This document shows, one piece after another, positions 52,379 through 64,000 of a stretch of 64,000 nucleotides of DNA. The notes beneath the pieces are model-generated. The model did not search any database, was not told where the DNA came from, and saw only the letters and a program-made list of their open reading frames with translations. The position numbers were made by a program, and so were the translations under genes. How positions within the stretch are numbered: position 1 is the first letter of the stretch; each line of letters begins with the position of its first letter. Source of the stretch: Escherichia phage phi92; sequence record NC_023693.1. The stretch is one strand, 5' to 3'.

Positions 52379-52500
52379 GATGATAATCATTCTCATTTGT
52401 AAATGAGAATCATTATCATTTAATTATGTAAGTGATAATCATTCTCACTAAGAGAATGAGAATCATTAGCAAATGAGAATTTTTCTCATTTAGAGAATAA
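52379..52500. promoter_or_regulatory. cluster of palindromic operator-like sites (Fur-box-like)
   Basis: GATAATCATTCTCATTTGTAAATGAGAATCATTATC near-perfect 36-bp palindrome, plus GATAATCATTCTCA...GAATGAGAATCATTAGC and AAATGAGAATTTTTCTCATTT. Confidence 0.45.
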
Positions 52501-59942: not shown

Positions 59943-60000
59943 TTGACACTAGGCAAACAACGTAGTAAAGTTTATCACATAGGGCGGCAATAGTGCCGCT
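59943..60000 (+). promoter_or_regulatory. early promoter + leader hairpin (cassette 11)
   Basis: TTGACA, 17 bp, TAAAGT, then GGCGGCA-ATAG-TGCCGCT. Confidence 0.55.
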
Positions 60001-60022
60001 CACAACTAAAAGAGAAATCAGC

Positions 60023-60217
60023 ATGGCGCTTAAAAAACTAACAAGCAATACTCGTTGGGATGAAATCGACGGGGAAGTATACATTTTCGCCCGTAAACCA
60101 GGTGATCAAAAATGGTCAAAGGCTTTTACTTGCCACCCTGCAACAATAGACCTGATAAAAAGGGAAGGTCTACGTGAAGCAGTAGCGAGAAGTTTACTGA
60201 TCCCTTATAAAAAATAG
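60023..60217 (+). CDS. hypothetical early protein
   Basis: Start set to ATG (MALKKLTSN). Confidence 0.45.
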   Translation: MALKKLTSNTRWDEIDGEVYIFARKPGDQKWSKAFTCHPATIDLIKREGLREAVARSLLIPYKK

Positions 60218-60218
60218 T

Positions 60219-60279
60219 TTGACAATATGCTGTTATCTGGTAAAGTGTACGACATAGGGCGGGGCAATAAGGCAACGCC
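60219..60279 (+). promoter_or_regulatory. early promoter + degenerate leader hairpin (cassette 12)
   Basis: TTGACA, 16 bp, TAAAGT, then GGCGGGGCAATAAGGCAACGCC with only a short GGCG/CGCC stem. Confidence 0.4.
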
Positions 60280-60301
60280 ACACATCAGAAAGGGAAAGAT
60301 T

Positions 60302-60538
60302 ATGACTATAGCAACAGTATTAACCGCCGTTAAAACCGCAGAATCATCCGGCTTGCATGTTGAGATTATAGATCAACCAGGTGGCGATCTCCTTGTCCAG
60401 GTTTACCCGCCGAAAGTAGGGGATGATTATTATTGGTGCTATTCTGATACGTTCGAACAAGTAGACACGAAAGCGATCACGGCTTTTATTTTAAAAGCTA
60501 TTGAAGAAAATAACTTTCATTATAACATCAATCAATAA
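60302..60538 (+). CDS. hypothetical early protein
   Basis: Start set to ATG (MTIATVLTAV) with RBS aagggaaag. Confidence 0.45.
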   Translation: MTIATVLTAVKTAESSGLHVEIIDQPGGDLLVQVYPPKVGDDYYWCYSDTFEQVDTKAITAFILKAIEENNFHYNINQ

Positions 60539-60558
60539 ACCATAAGCGGGGTAGCATC

Positions 60559-60663
60559 ATGTTAGAGAAAATTTTCACGGTTGTAATAGTGGGCCTGGCG
60601 TTATCGGTTGGATTGGTTGCAACTATGGCTAACATGATCCTATCTTCCCACGGTATCGGCTAA
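60559..60663 (+). CDS. small membrane peptide (34 aa)
   Basis: MLEKIFTVVIVGLALSVGLVATMANMILSSHGIG. Confidence 0.3.
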   Translation: MLEKIFTVVIVGLALSVGLVATMANMILSSHGIG

Positions 60664-60677
60664 AAGAGAAACACAAC

Positions 60678-61064
60678 ATGAAAACAGAAATCATTATTGA
60701 AATCATCAACGGTTATAAAGAAGCCTTTATTTTTGCCGAACCAGCGACGGATCACAATGGGGAATATATTGAGAATCTAGACGATTATGATTTTTCTCCT
60801 AGCGCCCTGAAACGTATTACCAGCGATGTGACCGCCTTTTGTAGTGCCAATGTTGCCGCTATCTCTGAGGCAATGAGCGACGGCGCTACAGCAAACCAGA
60901 TCGGGAATGATTTACATTTCACCCGTAACGGTCACGGCGTAGGCTTTTGGGATCGCCCTGAAATATACACTACTAACACCGCCAACCGCCTAACAAATGC
61001 AGCTAAATTAATGCCATCGGTGCATGCTTACATTGGTGAAGATAATTTGATTTATATTGAATAA
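60678..61064 (+). CDS. hypothetical early protein
   Basis: 128 aa ORF. Confidence 0.45.
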   Translation: MKTEIIIEIINGYKEAFIFAEPATDHNGEYIENLDDYDFSPSALKRITSDVTAFCSANVAAISEAMSDGATANQIGNDLHFTRNGHGVGFWDRPEIYTTNTANRLTNAAKLMPSVHAYIGEDNLIYIE

Positions 61065-61070
61065 AAAGTA

Positions 61071-61129
61071 TTGACACCGATCCCCAATATGGTACTATTT
61101 ACCACGTAGGCGGGAAGTGGTTTCCCGCT
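61071..61129 (+). promoter_or_regulatory. early promoter + leader hairpin (cassette 13)
   Basis: TTGACA, 16 bp, TACTAT, then GGCGGGAAG-TGG-TTTCCCGCT (two G-T positions). Confidence 0.55.
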
Positions 61130-61186
61130 AAATGAGAGATTATCATTATGTTCGATATCAGCCTGGACAAATAAGAGATTCCCATA

Positions 61187-61732
61187 ATGAACGCCTTGAT
61201 CGACAAAAAAACCTTTCTTAATAACGCCTACGTTAATGAACTACTTTCATCCGGTCGCTGGGTTAGCCACGGATCTGACCTTCAAACATGGCTAGATGAG
61301 TGCGACGAGGTTCCCGCCGCCTTTTCAGGTAAAAATTTGCAGCAGGTTATAAATGATACTGAATTTTTAAACTTCTTCCGTGAGTGGTTAAGCTGCCGCT
61401 TTGATTTTGCTATGAAATATCTGATCCAAGACATTAACCAACACACGGTTATTCGGCGGGCGGTATACCTAACCCCGGCACAAAAGGCCGAAATATTGCC
61501 CGGTTCTTTTGTTAATGTTGGTAAATATTGGACAGTATCCAGGACTGTGGAGCCATACGGGGCCACCTACACAAAGGATCGGGAGATAGTAACAATCACC
61601 ACAGAGTTAGACCTTAATTCAATCGACCTTATTCAGACGATGATCTCTCGCATGGACTATATTAATGGAGATTATGAAATGGAGATACAAACAAAGGAAA
61701 ACTTACCTGTAAAAATTCTCGCTATAGAATAG
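61187..61732 (+). CDS. hypothetical early protein
   Basis: 181 aa ORF. Confidence 0.45.
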   Translation: MNALIDKKTFLNNAYVNELLSSGRWVSHGSDLQTWLDECDEVPAAFSGKNLQQVINDTEFLNFFREWLSCRFDFAMKYLIQDINQHTVIRRAVYLTPAQKAEILPGSFVNVGKYWTVSRTVEPYGATYTKDREIVTITTELDLNSIDLIQTMISRMDYINGDYEMEIQTKENLPVKILAIE

Positions 61733-61755
61733 CCCGCTGCCCGGCGGGTTTTCTT
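61732..61755 (+). terminator. rho-independent terminator
   Basis: GCCCGC...GCGGG stem followed by TTTTCTT. Confidence 0.5.
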
Positions 61756-61788
61756 ACAGTTTTTTACAATTCTACCTATTGACACCGG

Positions 61789-61839
61789 ATCGCCCTTATA
61801 CTAAGATGTATCACGTAAGGCGGGAAGTGGTTTCCCGCC
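61789..61839 (+). promoter_or_regulatory. early promoter + leader hairpin (cassette 14)
   Basis: TTGACA, 17 bp, TAAGAT, then GGCGGGAAG-TGG-TTTCCCGCC. Confidence 0.55.
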
Positions 61840-61857
61840 AGATATAGGAGTCATATC

Positions 61858-62088
61858 ATGATCGAACAAATTAAACGCGCTGAGGCTATTAACGGTAATG
61901 TGATCTATTTTGTCAACAATAACGAAAAAGGCGTACCATATGCGGCGGTAATAGTACAGCCTGACGGCGATTATTGGTTTACTGTATACGGATCTTATTC
62001 TTTTGGGCGTCCAGTACATGATAAAATTTTGGAAGTAGCTAATCCCACTGGGAAGAATATCACAGTAGAAAAATTCTATGAAAAATAA
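61858..62088 (+). CDS. hypothetical early protein
   Basis: 76 aa ORF, RBS aggag. Confidence 0.45.
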   Translation: MIEQIKRAEAINGNVIYFVNNNEKGVPYAAVIVQPDGDYWFTVYGSYSFGRPVHDKILEVANPTGKNITVEKFYEK

Positions 62089-62163
62089 CTTGCTTTATAG
62101 CCTCTGTTAATTTATAGTTATCGTGTAGGGCAAACAATTTTAAACGGTAAACGAGGAATCTCC

Positions 62164-62547
62164 ATGAGCAATATCATCAACCTGGCGGCGACTGTAAACG
62201 GTAAAGATTTTAACGGCGCTGTAGATCGTGATCCTATGTGGTGCTTATCAGTGTTTAAAGGCGATCTGGTTGAAGTTAGAACAACCGAAGGGTATAGCGA
62301 TGATTATAAATGTGAGATTCATTTGCACAACTGGTACACGGGTAAAACTTATGCGCTGAATCATGCGTTTATCGGGAAAATTGAATATCGCGAGATGATC
62401 GACGAGGAAACCGGGCAAGATTTTAGCGACTATGTTTATATTCGTTCAGAAACATTAGCCGAACGTTTGATCGAGAAAATGAAAGCAAAAAATAAAATTA
62501 ATTTAACTCATTGGATTGATATAACAAACGATCCAGCTTATCAGTAA
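62164..62547 (+). CDS. hypothetical early protein
   Basis: 127 aa ORF, RBS gagga. Confidence 0.45.
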   Translation: MSNIINLAATVNGKDFNGAVDRDPMWCLSVFKGDLVEVRTTEGYSDDYKCEIHLHNWYTGKTYALNHAFIGKIEYREMIDEETGQDFSDYVYIRSETLAERLIEKMKAKNKINLTHWIDITNDPAYQ

Positions 62548-62563
62548 ATAACATTTCATACCA

Positions 62564-62589
62564 GGGCGCTTATTGCGCCCTTTCTTTTT
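62564..62589 (+). terminator. rho-independent terminator closing the early array
   Basis: GGGCGC-TTATT-GCGCCC followed by TTTCTTTTT. Confidence 0.6.
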
Positions 62590-62803
62590 ACCTAAATAAA
62601 GATGATAGCTTTTACCTATCAAAAACGTTCACCGAAAAAAGTGAATAGATCGCGGTATCGAGCTAATCAAGGAGCAGATGAACAACCATACCATGAAGAT
62701 CATAAGGCGCTTACAACGTGTTTTAGACCGCTTATTTTTAATTTCTCAATGTAACTATCGGGCAAAAACAGCCTTTTTCTTGTCTTTCCTCTTAAATGAT
62801 AAT

Positions 62804-63948
62804 CATTCTTATTTATAGCTGATTATTTATGCAATAAACTGCATAATGCAATAATGATAATCATTCTTAACTTAAGACCATCTAACCTATAAAATAATAA
62901 GCTATCTAACTAAATTAAACCTAATTATCTCACTTTTATTTATAACTTACTGTTATTATCTCATTGATAACATTGTATTAAACAACAATAACTAATATAA
63001 ATCATTACTAAGCTAACTATAATCTATCTAACCCTTAAAACTACAATTATAATCTATCAAATTGTTGCACAAAGTAACTATTAAATTGTTAGTAACATTA
63101 CTAAATAATTTACATCCTACTTATTTATGATCTAATCTTTACCTCCCTATCTATTACCTAAATAACCATTTCATGTAGTAATCATTTCATACAATAACTA
63201 TAACAAGAAATATAATTCGCAAGCGTATCATTAGCAGCCTATGCCGGACACATAGGCGGCTAATAATAACGCAACTACACACCCCACATAATAACCATCA
63301 CCGATAGTTATTATTTGTGCTTATGTAGCTTGCAACAATTGCAAGCGCAACAATATACGAGAGTATATTGTATTCCCTTACATTGTTGCGGTGCGTTATT
63401 ATTAGCTAATGTTTAGAACATTGGCTATAATATAAGCTAAATAATAAGCTATGCAATAATAAACATGGTGAATAATGACATTGATGATCATAATGCGCCA
63501 CCCTCCAGGGGGCGCTATGTGTACACAAAGAAATCTTTCTTGTCAAGAAAAATATCATCACTATTGCGCAAAATTATTTACATCTGAATAGATGATTTTT
63601 CATACTATTGCCCCCATAATTATCTTTATTTGTTACCCCTAAATATCCTATTTGTTGAGCCTACTTTCTTAAAAGCGCAATAAATCAGAATTATCTTGAT
63701 TTTTAGTCGGTTTTATAGTATAGAAAATATGTAAATGATAATCATTATCAGCTATCTTCCACGGGTGGCACTATTTCACGCCAGATCATTTCATTTGACA
63801 AGGTGTATATAGATGTTTAGACTTGCCAAGCCATTGATTTACTTAGAATTTATCTGTTTTGTTGTGAGTAGTACCTTTCTTGCTCAGAAAATAATCAAAA
63901 GTCTTATAAGTCATTGAATGATAATGCAAATGATAATTATTCTCATTG
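62804..63948. promoter_or_regulatory. non-coding AT-rich region with four Fur-box-like sites and short repeats
   Basis: AAATGATAATCATTCTTA at 62804 and 62852, AAATGATAATCATTATC at 63733, AATGATAATGCAAATGATAATTATTCTCATTG at 63916; recurring (A)TCTATCTAAC motifs; no ORF of 60 aa or more. Confidence 0.4.
63259..63406. repeat. nested inverted-repeat structure
   Basis: Exact 14-bp inverted repeat GCTAATAATAACGC / GCGTTATTATTAGC enclosing palindrome GCTTGCAA-CAA-TTGCAAGC and inverted repeat CGCAACAAT...ATTGTTGCG. Confidence 0.5.
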
Positions 63949-64000
63949 ATATTTGAGGGGGACGGTCGGCAGAAATCGGGGGGCGCTGAAAATCGCGTTA

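What the first reader, a model, noticed from the sequence alone, without database searches (positions are those of the whole stretch)
63259..63406. Nested inverted repeats forming a possible large cruciform or structured RNA
An exact 14-bp inverted repeat (GCTAATAATAACGC at 63259-63272 and GCGTTATTATTAGC at 63393-63406) encloses further palindromes: ATAATAAC/GTTATTAT, GCTTGCAA-CAA-TTGCAAGC at 63328-63346, CGCAACAAT...ATTGTTGCG and ATATAC-GAGA-GTATAT. Such hierarchical symmetry is unlikely by chance in 150 bp. It suggests an origin, a packaging or recombination site, or a structured ncRNA.
Basis: seen in the sequence. Interest (0 to 1): 0.5.

Follow-up and report, generated by a model that had tools for sequence, protein, structure and literature searches.

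The report
Conserved cloverleaf beside phage terminal repeat
A 170-base stretch near the right end of a phi92-like E. coli phage genome folds into a hairpin plus a four-armed junction. Evolution has preserved this fold by paired compensating mutations across the whole phage subfamily, so it is a real and so far undescribed structured element, probably involved in replicating or packaging the genome, though its exact job is unknown.

Summary
Window 63237-63406 holds a hairpin (P0) followed by a four-way junction. A perfect 15-bp stem (P1, 63259-73/63392-406) closes three hairpins (P2, P3, P4). It is the strongest fold in the 64 kb and is single-copy.

It is conserved in 32 distinct phi92-/phAPEC8-like phages (Stephanstirmvirinae). 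13 of 45 pairs show compensatory double changes (0/500 shuffles reach this), so intrastrand pairing is under selection. Every one-sided change is G.U on the bottom (-) strand and A.C on the top strand. The - strand folds 10-23 kcal/mol better in all 19 homologs compared, so the - strand is the one that folds.

The window ends at the physical right genome end. The element lies 252 bp left of the 343-bp right terminal repeat. A 400-bp AT-rich, G-poor stretch lies on its other side, and short same-orientation repeats flank it. There is no Rfam, tRNA, terminator or plasmid match.

RNA versus folded DNA cannot be settled computationally. I favour a cis-acting origin-type/priming element of the terminal control region (~0.35). 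Rivals are a - strand ncRNA (~0.3) and a packaging/junction-processing signal (~0.2). I found no description of it; it is moderately interesting.

The parts
63237..63257 (-). P0 hairpin: stem GCCTATG / CATAGGC (63237-43 / 63251-57), 7-nt loop CCGGACA (top-strand notation)
   Evidence: Three of its 8 model pairs show double compensatory changes (GC<->CG twice, UA<->CG) and all cells are paired (helix 5). The loop is nearly invariant.
63259..63273 (-). P1 left arm (GCTAATAATAACGCA) of the 15-bp closing stem
   Evidence: Perfect 15-bp complement of 63392-63406 (I10). Four inner pairs covary (AU<->UA, AU<->CG, CG<->GC, GC<->CG/AU). 100% paired in 32 sequences (helix 1). The outer 10 bp never vary.
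63275..63328 (-). P2 arm: base helix CTACA/TGTAG (63275-79 / 63324-28), middle helix CACA/TGTG, and distal 9-bp hairpin with a 3-nt loop (about 63288-63314)
   Evidence: The distal hairpin has 6 of 9 pairs with double changes (helix 4). The base helix shows wobble-mediated exchange (A-U,U.G <-> G.U,C-G) that pairs only on the - strand (helix 3).
63328..63346 (-). P3 hairpin GCTTGCAA-CAA-TTGCAAGC
   Evidence: The arms are essentially invariant in 32 sequences (7 of 8 pairs never vary; the loop-closing pair is G.U in 4), while the 3-nt loop varies freely (helix 2). This hints at sequence-specific recognition of the stem.
63346..63390 (-). P4 arm: CGCAACAAT / ATTGTTGCG (63346-54 / 63382-90) with inner hairpin ATATAC-GAGA-GTATAT (63353-68) and conserved loop CCCTTACA (63375-82)
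   Evidence: Long in Justusliebigvirus. In other lineages it is shortened to CGTAAT(G)/(C)ATTACG with loop ..CGCTTACA... The stem changes C:G <-> T:A between genera. The phAPEC8 clade has T.G on the top strand, the only counter-example to the strand rule.
63392..63406 (-). P1 right arm (TGCGTTATTATTAGC)
   Evidence: See the P1 left arm.
63227..63235 (+). Upstream ATCATTAGC. It is a direct-repeat copy of the P1 right-arm motif and could pair with the P1 left arm instead, extending P0
   Evidence: I8: 18-nt arms, 89% complementary. It is part of the same-orientation ATTAGC(A) array seen in relatives, with 2-9 copies around the element.
62800..63200 (.). AT-rich stretch, almost G-free on the top strand, directly left of the element; contains TAAGCTA repeats (62898, 63009)
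   Evidence: GC 20-25% and GC skew -0.36 to -0.76. The sequence is not conserved, but the G-poor composition is kept in other lineages (G 0.11-0.12 vs C 0.16-0.23). TAAGCTA: 4 of the window's 12 copies lie in this 1.4 kb, all in + orientation.
63164..63197 (+). Tandem ~16-nt repeats (TAAYCATTTCATRYAR), 2 copies here and 3 in phage inny
   Evidence: Annotated as repeat_region in phages arall and inny. Visible in alignment A1.
63407..63657 (.). Poorly conserved spacer between the element and the terminal repeat. It holds promoter-like hexamers on both strands (- strand TTGCAT-16-TATATT at 63456-63429; + strand TATAAT at 63426-31) and two TAAGCTA repeats (63433, 63445)
   Evidence: The promoter-like matches are weak (8 of 12) in AT-rich DNA and are not evidence of transcription.
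63658..64000 (.). Right direct terminal repeat (343 bp); the window ends at the physical right end of the genome
   Evidence: It aligns end to end with the annotated 343-bp repeat of Salmonella phage UAB_1 and the 342-bp PhageTerm repeat of BME3, with identical terminal bases (PMC12210895, PMC11350853). The boundary sequences ..TGTTG|AGC.. and ..CGCGTTA are conserved across genera.

Best explanation
The element is a conserved, single-copy, cis-acting structured element of the genome's terminal control region. It works as a folded single strand of the bottom (-) strand: a hairpin (P0) next to a four-way junction (P1-P4).

Most likely mechanism (inferred, not shown): it is part of an origin-type module. 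That module would consist of the adjacent 400-bp AT-rich, G-poor stretch as the easily unwound region, the flanking same-orientation short repeats (ATTAGC/TAAGCTA) plus the sequence-invariant stems as binding sites for a phage protein, and the fold itself. When the region is opened, or transcribed leftward from the spacer next to the terminal repeat, the bottom strand folds into the junction. This gives a strand-specific landmark at which DNA synthesis is primed or the replisome is loaded.

Shown: the structure, its conservation by compensatory change, the strand that folds, its uniqueness, its position relative to the terminal repeat, and the flanking composition and repeats.

Inferred: that it acts in replication initiation, and whether the folded molecule is displaced DNA or a primer/activator transcript.
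For: Structure under selection:
- 100% of 1,440 cells are paired on the - strand in 32 distinct sequences.
- 13 pairs (95 cells) changed on both sides. None of 500 shuffles reach this, and slid controls give <=3 such pairs.

Strand:
- 9 of 45 pair positions (84 cells) carry G.U on the - strand, which is A.C on the + strand. None show the reverse.
- The - strand MFE is 10-23 kcal/mol lower than the + strand in 19 of 19 homologs.

Uniqueness: one copy in the 64 kb and none at the left genome end.

Origin-like context:
- An AT-rich, G-poor stretch lies directly adjacent, and its composition (not its sequence) is conserved.
- Same-orientation ATTAGC(A) arrays of 2-9 copies surround the element in relatives, and TAAGCTA is enriched about 15-fold in this window.
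- The outer P1, P2a and P3 stems are invariant in sequence while their loops vary. This fits recognition of duplex stems by a protein and is more usual for DNA than for RNA.
- P2 and P3 always have 3-nt loops, which are comfortable in DNA hairpins.
- There is no canonical terminator on either strand that would define a discrete RNA gene.
- The fold is as far from chance with DNA parameters (z = -9.6 and -9.0) as with RNA parameters.
Against: - No replication data exist for this phage group. The rV5 authors found no origin by skew analysis (PMC3606486), and GC skew here simply follows gene orientation.
- There are no DnaA boxes and no GATC cluster.
- The flanking repeats are few in the window itself (2 ATTAGC, 4 TAAGCTA) and irregularly spaced in relatives.
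- A four-way junction is not a usual part of theta-type origins.
- G.U tolerance and possible alternative pairings fit an RNA at least as well.
- Closeness to the terminal repeat fits a packaging role equally well.
Confidence: 0.35

Rival explanations
1. It is a stand-alone non-coding RNA gene on the - strand of about 170-200 nt. It would be transcribed leftward, away from the genome end, from a promoter in the spacer at about 63429-63456. It would act as a structured RNA, either in trans (regulatory, or a packaging or anti-defence RNA) or as the structured 5' domain of a longer transcript.
For: - Covariation plus exclusive G.U tolerance on one strand is the classic signature of a structured RNA.
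- The - strand RNA MFE is much lower than the + strand in all 19 homologs compared.
- It is a multi-helix junction with conserved unpaired nucleotides.
- -10-like hexamers lie 0-25 nt upstream of the 5' arm on the - strand in most lineages.
- Two sets of mutually exclusive pairings suggest a conformational switch (I8; note).
Against: - There is no intrinsic terminator after the element on the - strand.
- The promoter-like matches are weak (3 of 6 at -35) in AT-rich DNA, and equally good ones exist on the + strand.
- No Rfam family matches.
- Stems that are invariant in sequence, and the flanking DNA repeats, are not explained.
- No transcript data were found in the literature.
Confidence: 0.3
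2. It is a packaging or concatemer-junction processing signal. In this reading it is a recognition structure for terminase or accessory proteins, or a snap-back hairpin used to duplicate the terminal repeat. The analogy is to pacB and the hairpin end described left of the right terminal repeat of T7 concatemers (recalled from Chung, Nardone and Hinkle 1990; not checked here).
For: - The order AT-rich stretch, element, spacer, terminal repeat is conserved across genera, and the element lies in unique DNA 190-250 bp left of the right repeat in most lineages.
- It is single-copy, so it marks only one side of each concatemer junction.
- The flanking direct repeats could be small-terminase binding sites.
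- Early-type small genes follow the left repeat. This suggests that the left end enters the cell first and the right end is packaged first (inference).
Against: - The distance to the repeat is not fixed; it reaches about 330-465 bp in lineages such as KP13-26 and Tr1.
- The terminal-repeat boundaries have their own conserved motifs and, in many lineages, their own small hairpin.
- A simple inverted repeat would suffice for snap-back priming. An elaborate four-way junction with conserved loops is not needed.
Confidence: 0.2
3. It is a top-strand RNA element: a leader, insulator or unusual terminator for transcripts that enter from the upstream promoter-like sites (62867-62895, or CATACA-17-TATAAT at 63188-63216).
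For: - All neighbouring genes are on the + strand.
- + strand promoter-like sites lie 42-57 nt upstream of P1 in many lineages.
Against: - 84 cells at 9 pair positions would be A.C mismatches on the + strand, with no compensating G.U pairs.
- The + strand fold is 10-23 kcal/mol weaker.
- No U tract follows the structure.
Confidence: 0.05
4. It has no function of its own. It would be chance palindromes in AT-rich DNA, or a remnant of a small mobile element with terminal inverted repeats.
For: The 15-bp repeat alone is only modestly improbable: about 0.18 perfect 14-mer inverted repeats are expected per 64 kb.
Against: - Compensatory changes occur in four helices across genera.
- It is one of only four conserved islands in a non-coding region that has otherwise diverged.
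- It is single-copy and always at the same position.
- It has no copies in plasmids or bacterial genomes.
Confidence: 0.02

Closest known systems
T7-type concatemer-junction elements: pacB and the hairpin end formed left of the right terminal repeat (recalled from Chung and Hinkle / Chung, Nardone and Hinkle, J Mol Biol 1990; these papers were not in the searchable library)
   Same: Both are phages with short direct terminal repeats and a T7-like primase-helicase/Pol A replisome (rV5 relatives; PMC3606486). Both have an inverted-repeat element in the unique DNA a few hundred bp left of the right repeat, present once per concatemer junction.
   Different: The T7 element is, as far as I recall, a simple short palindrome. 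This one is a 170-nt four-way junction plus a hairpin, with conserved loops and strand-specific selection. No hairpin-ended DNA has been shown for this phage group.
Phage T5 injection-stop (iss) / repeat region 3 (bioRxiv 10.1101/866236)
   Same: [quoted passage not shown] Both carry arrays of boxes resembling host DNA-binding-protein sites, and in both the function is unresolved.
   Different: T5's region lies inside a 10-kb repeat and carries paired DnaA boxes. Here the element lies outside a 343-bp repeat, no DnaA boxes are present, and the boxes resemble Fur sites. No two-step injection is known for this group.
Transcription-primed origins and their structured primer RNAs: ColE1 RNA II, T7 phi1.1A/B and phiOR origins, T4 oriF/oriG (from memory)
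   Same: Both show the layout promoter-like sites, then a structured segment, then an AT-rich region whose non-template strand is G-richer than its template. This arrangement favours persistent RNA-DNA hybrids for a leftward transcript.
   Different: There is no evidence of transcription, R-loops or RNase H processing here, and no sequence or Rfam similarity.
Folded single-strand DNA signals: G4-type ssi sites, single-strand origins of rolling-circle plasmids, integron attC bottom strand, AAV ITR (from memory)
   Same: Both are multi-hairpin folds of about 100-200 nt that work in one strand only. Structure is conserved more than sequence, short loops are common, and recognition is by proteins. 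The AAV ITR is likewise an outer palindrome enclosing smaller palindromes.
   Different: Those systems have an obligatory single-stranded phase or sit at the extreme terminus. This is a double-stranded DNA myovirus and the element is 594 bp from the end. None of their signature motifs was found.
phi29 pRNA (packaging RNA; from memory)
   Same: Both are structured elements of 120-174 nt encoded within a few hundred bp of a genome end, with structure conserved by covariation among relatives.
   Different: pRNA is a three-way junction with interlocking loops, is transcribed toward the end, and occurs in protein-primed podoviruses. Here there is a four-way junction with 3-nt loops that cannot interlock, and no Rfam match to any family at E <= 1, pRNA included.

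Membership tests
Any Rfam 15 RNA family | Covariance-model match on either strand | tested here: not met
   No match at E <= 1 in window 60000-64000. In four diverged homologs there were only two sub-threshold chance hits, both outside the element.
tRNA / tmRNA | Cloverleaf recognised by ARAGORN | tested here: not met
   0 genes in 62500-64000. The arms are far longer than tRNA arms.
Intrinsic (rho-independent) terminator | G+C-rich hairpin directly followed by a U tract | tested here: not met
   The only terminator-like site in 62400-64000 is at 62563-62590, after the last gene. Nothing lies at or after the element on either strand.
Structured non-coding RNA (generic) | Base pairs maintained by compensatory substitutions | tested here: met
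   13 of 45 pairs changed on both sides, 0/500 shuffles reach this, and slid controls give <=3.
Structured non-coding RNA (generic) | The element is transcribed as a discrete RNA with a defined promoter and 3' end | not testable with these tools
   There are only weak promoter-like hexamers on both strands and no terminator. No transcriptome literature was found.
Iteron-type replication origin | Array of direct repeats for an initiator protein | tested here: inconclusive
   ATTAGC(A) occurs in the same orientation at 2-9 copies around the element, depending on lineage. TAAGCTA has 4 copies in the window's terminal 1.4 kb. The spacing is irregular and the binding protein is unknown.
Iteron-type replication origin | Adjacent AT-rich unwinding region | tested here: met
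   62800-63200 has GC 20-25%. Similar G-poor, low-GC DNA lies left of the element in other lineages.
Iteron-type replication origin | Host DnaA boxes or a GATC cluster | tested here: not met
   0 DnaA boxes. GATC is at 3.6/kb against 5.1/kb in the whole window.
Iteron-type replication origin | Replication starts here | not testable with these tools
   GC skew follows gene orientation only. No experimental mapping is known.
T7-type pac / junction hairpin | Lies in unique DNA just left of the right terminal repeat, once per junction | tested here: met
   252 bp left of the repeat in the window and 190-250 bp in most lineages. Single copy.
T7-type pac / junction hairpin | Required for packaging; hairpin-ended DNA intermediates | not testable with these tools
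   Needs transduction assays or end mapping on replicating DNA.
T5 iss region | Located within the terminal repeat and carrying paired DnaA boxes | tested here: not met
   The element lies outside the 343-bp repeat, and there are no DnaA boxes.
phi29-type pRNA | Three-way junction with complementary interlocking loops; Rfam pRNA model | tested here: not met
   Four-way junction, 3-nt loops in P2 and P3, and no Rfam hit.
Miniature inverted-repeat mobile element | Multiple dispersed copies bounded by terminal inverted repeats | tested here: not met
   One copy per genome, always at the same position. None in plasmids. The bacterial-genome pattern hits are noise.

The most novel reading that the evidence does not exclude
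The element is the core of a so-far unknown class of genome-end machinery in large terminal-repeat myoviruses. It would be a bottom-strand structured molecule (RNA or folded DNA) that a phage protein reads by shape and stem sequence, either to start replication or to initiate processing and packaging at the concatemer junction. Functionally it would be a counterpart of ColE1 RNA II, phi29 pRNA or the parvovirus ITR, but with an unrelated four-way-junction architecture.
Probability: 0.25. Interest if true: 0.8.

Novelty: new variant of a known kind. Interest (0 to 1): 0.55.

Why it matters
phi92-, phAPEC8- and rV5-like phages are widely isolated and used in therapy cocktails. Yet nothing is known about where they start replication, how their short terminal repeats are regenerated, or what their 1-2 kb gene-free terminal region does.

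This element is the most conserved and most structured part of that region, and it now has a defined secondary structure, a defined strand and a covariance model. That makes the open question directly testable with compensatory and strand-discriminating mutants, strand-specific RNA detection and origin or end mapping.

It also flags tiny ORFs annotated across the element in several GenBank records as probable over-annotation.

Tried and rejected
- Rfam scans of the window and of four homologs found nothing relevant.
- ARAGORN found no tRNA or tmRNA.
- The terminator scan found nothing at the element.
- The sigma-70 promoter scans (the tool, then my own across 15 lineages) found hexamers on both strands at semi-conserved distances. 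They are too weak and too frequent in AT-rich DNA to decide the transcribed strand.
- Large-scale GC skew follows gene orientation and gives no origin signal.
- DnaA, IHF and GATC motifs are not enriched.
- The plasmid collection gave no match.
- The pattern scan of bacterial genomes, and 6 of the 19 loci from the viral and metagenome pattern scans, matched only the P3 palindrome by chance.
- Mobile-element and chance explanations were rejected on single-copy synteny and covariation.
- A fixed spacing to the terminal repeat was rejected, because the distance varies where the boundary unit is duplicated. My earlier reading that the ECO340P2 record ends exactly at the repeat boundary was wrong by about 26 bp.
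- The inner part of the alternative upstream pairing (P0 extension) shows no consistent covariation when checked by eye across lineages.
- Literature searches for transcription or ncRNA in this subfamily and for the T7 hairpin papers found nothing usable.
- The rV5 genome was only one-third fetched and not scanned, so presence in Vequintavirinae is untested.
- A first attempt at the chance simulation timed out and was redone at smaller scale.
Full report
**Observation.** The outer inverted repeat is a perfect 15-mer, 63259-63273 / 63392-63406 (I10). It encloses three hairpins:
- P2: base helix CTACA/TGTAG at 63275-79 / 63324-28, and a distal hairpin around 63288-63314.
- P3: GCTTGCAA-CAA-TTGCAAGC at 63328-46.
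- P4: CGCAACAAT/ATTGTTGCG at 63346-54 / 63382-90, with the inner ATATAC-GAGA-GTATAT at 63353-68.

The helices abut one another with almost no unpaired bases, so the fold is a four-way junction. A further hairpin, P0 (63237-43 / 63251-57), lies one base upstream.

Is it more than chance?
- The 15-mer is the only perfect inverted repeat of >=14 nt with arms <=200 nt apart in the 64 kb. On its own it is only mildly improbable, with about 0.18 such 14-mers expected.
- The fold as a whole is far from chance. The z-scores are -7.6 and -7.95 as RNA and -9.0 and -9.6 as DNA, with none of 200 shuffles folding as well.
- It ranks first among 1,278 windows of 175 nt on both strands, with a GC-corrected z of -6.6 on the - strand.

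**Genome context.** The window is 94-96% identical to phi92-like myoviruses of the genus Justusliebigvirus, subfamily Stephanstirmvirinae. The element lies in a gene-free stretch of about 1.8 kb between the homolog of phi92 gp248 (62164-62547, followed by a terminator at 62563-90) and the first genes of the genome.

Window 63658-64000 aligns end to end with the annotated 343-bp direct terminal repeat of Salmonella phage UAB_1 and the 342-bp repeat of BME3. The last bases are identical, so the window ends at the physical right end of the genome. BME3's ends were determined with PhageTerm (PMC12210895), and PMC11350853 reports short direct terminal repeats for UAB_1. The element therefore lies in unique DNA, 252 bp left of the right repeat and 594 bp from the end.

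In Phapecoctavirus and unclassified relatives the repeat boundaries carry the same sequences (..TGTTG|AGC.. and ..CGCGTTA). The repeat starts 190-250 bp right of the element in most lineages. It starts further away where the boundary unit is duplicated.

Only four islands of the non-coding region are conserved across lineages:
- the end of the last gene with its terminator and two palindromic boxes;
- the element;
- the start of the terminal repeat;
- the end of the terminal repeat.

**Conservation and covariation.** BLAST finds the element once per genome in 131 phage records. Pattern scans added metagenomic copies. Unrelated pattern hits were recognised by eye and later by the covariance model.

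On a MAFFT alignment of 19 distinct sequences, RNAalifold recovered P0, P1, P2 and P3, with 13 of 39 pairs changed on both sides. The reverse-strand alignment of 24 sequences gave 45 pairs, 13 of them compensatory. Formal counting gave 99.4% of cells paired, none of 500 shuffles reaching the observed values, and slid controls with <=4 compensatory pairs.

After ten more variants were added and all 34 copies (32 distinct) were aligned to a covariance model, the result was stronger still:
- 100.0% of 1,440 cells are standard pairs.
- 95 cells at 13 pairs changed on both sides, and none of 500 shuffles reach this.

This last alignment is fitted to the model and so leans towards the structure, but the independent MAFFT alignments give the same picture. 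Examples from the outer stem: AACGC/GCGTT in the window becomes AAGCC/GGCTT in phAPEC8, ACCGC/GCGGT in Tr1 and KP13-26, and AACAC/GTGTT in L015. Phage arall has an A-T to T-A swap. Intrastrand base pairing is therefore under selection. A long-range stem with arms 118 nt apart cannot be explained by a dimeric protein site on duplex DNA.

**Which strand folds.** In the top-strand alignment, all 14 non-Watson-Crick cells out of 817 are A.C or C.A. None is G.T or any other mismatch. Read on the bottom strand, these are G.U wobbles.

In the 32-sequence alignment, 9 of 45 pair positions (84 cells) carry G.U on the - strand, and no position carries A.C there. Under strand-symmetric mutation the two outcomes are equally likely, so 9 to 0 gives a two-sided p of about 0.004. 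It is 9 to 1 if the one contrary case in P4 is counted: the phAPEC8 clade has CGTAAT/ATTGCG, which is T.G on the top strand.

At the base of P2, two adjacent pairs exchange as (A-U, U.G) <-> (G.U, C-G). This keeps pairing only on the - strand (helix 3). The - strand also folds 10-23 kcal/mol more stably than the + strand in all 19 homologs compared.

So the functional fold is that of the bottom strand, not a symmetric cruciform. G.T is also the least harmful mismatch in DNA, so this result does not separate RNA from single-stranded DNA.

**What it is not.**
- No Rfam family matches on either strand.
- It is not a tRNA or tmRNA.
- It is not an intrinsic terminator.
- It is not on plasmids or in bacterial genomes.
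- It is not repeated in the genome, and there is no copy at the left end.

I found no description of it. The rV5 genome paper only marks a 'non-coding' box and reports that skew analysis did not reveal an origin (PMC3606486). Searches for transcription or ncRNA work on this subfamily found nothing.

**Surroundings that bear on function.**
- Immediately left of the element lies a 400-bp stretch of 20-25% G+C that is almost free of G on the top strand, with GC skew down to -0.76. Its sequence is not conserved but its composition is.
- Short motifs flank the element in one orientation. ATTAGC(A) has 2 copies in the window, 5 in phAPEC8 and 9 in KP13-26; the left arm of P1 is the single inverted copy. 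In the window, TAAGCTA has 4 of its 12 copies in these 1.4 kb, all in the + orientation.
- The outer 10 bp of P1, the base of P2 and both arms of P3 essentially do not vary in 32 sequences at about 78% overall identity, whereas the 3-nt loops of P2 and P3 vary freely. This suggests that stems are read by sequence as well as by shape.
- Promoter-like hexamers occur on both sides of the element. On the - strand there is TTGCAT-16-TATATT at 63456-63429, and -10-like hexamers lie 0-25 nt from the 5' arm in most lineages. On the + strand there is CATACA-17-TATAAT at 63188-63216, and sites lie 42-57 nt upstream of P1 elsewhere. All are weak matches in AT-rich DNA.

**Interpretation.** Shown: a single-copy, strand-specific, covarying structure in the terminal non-coding region, with an AT-rich stretch on one side and the terminal repeat on the other. 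Everything about mechanism is inferred.

I rank the hypotheses as follows.
1. An origin-type cis element, about 0.35. It accounts for the most observations together: an unwinding region next door, direct repeats and invariant stems as protein sites, a strand-specific fold as a priming or loading landmark, 3-nt loops, and no terminator. It has no direct support and lacks host DnaA signatures. The folded molecule could be displaced DNA or a leftward primer transcript. A leftward transcript into the G-poor template would be the arrangement that favours R-loops, as at ColE1, T4 and T7 origins (from memory).
2. A - strand ncRNA gene, about 0.3. It fits the wobble pattern and the possible alternative pairings, but it leaves the DNA repeats, the invariant stems and the missing terminator unexplained.
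3. A packaging or junction-processing signal, about 0.2. It fits the position next to the repeat and recalls T7 pacB and the T7 hairpin end (from memory; those papers were not retrievable). However, the spacing is variable and the repeat boundaries have their own conserved signals.
4. A top-strand RNA, about 0.05, which the mismatch pattern argues against.
5. Chance or a mobile-element remnant, about 0.02, which the covariation and synteny exclude.

**Comparison with known systems.** The nearest analogues in role are T7's right-end elements, the T5 injection-stop repeat region (bioRxiv 10.1101/866236), structured primer RNAs of transcription-primed origins, folded single-strand DNA signals (G4-type ssi, plasmid single-strand origins, attC, AAV ITR) and phi29 pRNA. 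The element meets the positional feature of the T7 case and the AT-rich-flank feature of origins. It fails every testable sequence or architecture criterion of the named families (see the membership table). It should be treated as an undescribed element of a familiar general kind, not as a member of any of them.

**Verdict.** Novelty: a new variant of a known kind (cis-acting or structured elements at phage genome ends). Interest is moderate (0.55). A specialist would not be astonished, but the element is the best handle yet on how this widely used phage group initiates replication or processes its ends. It comes with a defined structure, a defined strand and a model for further searches.

Noticed in passing
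window 62795-62807, 62853-62865, 63734-63746, 63929-63941: There are perfect or near-perfect copies of the palindrome AATGATAATCATT, the core of the E. coli Fur-box consensus GATAATGATAATCATTATC (recalled from memory). Two lie at the left edge of the AT-rich stretch and two lie inside the terminal repeat. The motif has 30 matches with <=2 mismatches in the window against 5.6 expected. The copy AATGATAATTATTCTCATT is also present in the phAPEC8 terminal repeat. These could be host Fur sites or operators of a phage protein on early promoters.
   Followed up: partly
window 52379-52500: There is a dense array of at least four adjacent Fur-box-like palindromes (GATGATAATCATTCTCATT.., AATGAGAATCATTATCATT.., AGTGATAATCATT.., AATGAGAATCATTAGCAAATGAGAA) in an intergenic region. 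It is the second-strongest fold in the window on the + strand. One copy runs into ATCATTAGCA, the same motif that flanks the element.
   Followed up: no
L007:1840-1870 (phAPEC8), and the corresponding sites in L008, L010, L011, L015, L021, L024, L028, L029: A small G+C-rich hairpin sits directly 5' of the left boundary of the terminal repeat (..hairpin-WTGTTG|AGC..). Its sequence differs between lineages but its pairing is kept: for example CGCGTAGCG, CCGCCACAGGCGG, ACCCTGATAAGGGT. The whole unit is duplicated 2-3 times, with copies about 46-116 bp apart, in Tr1, KP13-26, L015, L028, L029 and WPEC1. It is unclear or absent in the window (63630-63657). It may be the terminase cutting signal.
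   Followed up: partly
window 63164-63197: About 16-nt tandem repeats (TAAYCATTTCATRYAR) lie roughly 40 nt upstream of P0. There are two copies here and three in phage inny. They are annotated as repeat_region in arall and inny.
   Followed up: no
window 63508-63516 and 63979-63987: The motif GGGGGCGCT occurs in the spacer before the terminal repeat and again about 14 bp from the physical right end (D5). A similar GGGGGCGAA lies before the repeat boundary in phAPEC8.
   Followed up: no
window 64000 (the end of the window): The window stops exactly at the physical right terminus of the phage genome (..GAAAATCGCGTTA), identical to the end of the UAB_1 record. The window is therefore the rightmost 64 kb of a record deposited with both terminal repeats.
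   Followed up: yes
GenBank records MG065639, MG065645, MG065656, MG065689 (hits H18-H21): Four records named 'Campylobacter phage' with host Campylobacter jejuni are 94% identical over this region to E. coli phi92-like phages and have the same genome size. The host assignment looks doubtful; contamination or mislabelling is possible.
   Followed up: no
L041 (Antha), L042 (J-01), L044 (AMO3598), L049 (phi1_175008); also the VivaForever, cardinal and KMB37 rows: Several recent records annotate 2-9 tiny 'hypothetical protein' CDSs (30-40 aa, both strands) across the element and the surrounding gene-free region. Older curated records annotate none. Given the RNA/DNA-type covariation, these are probably over-predictions.
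   Followed up: partly
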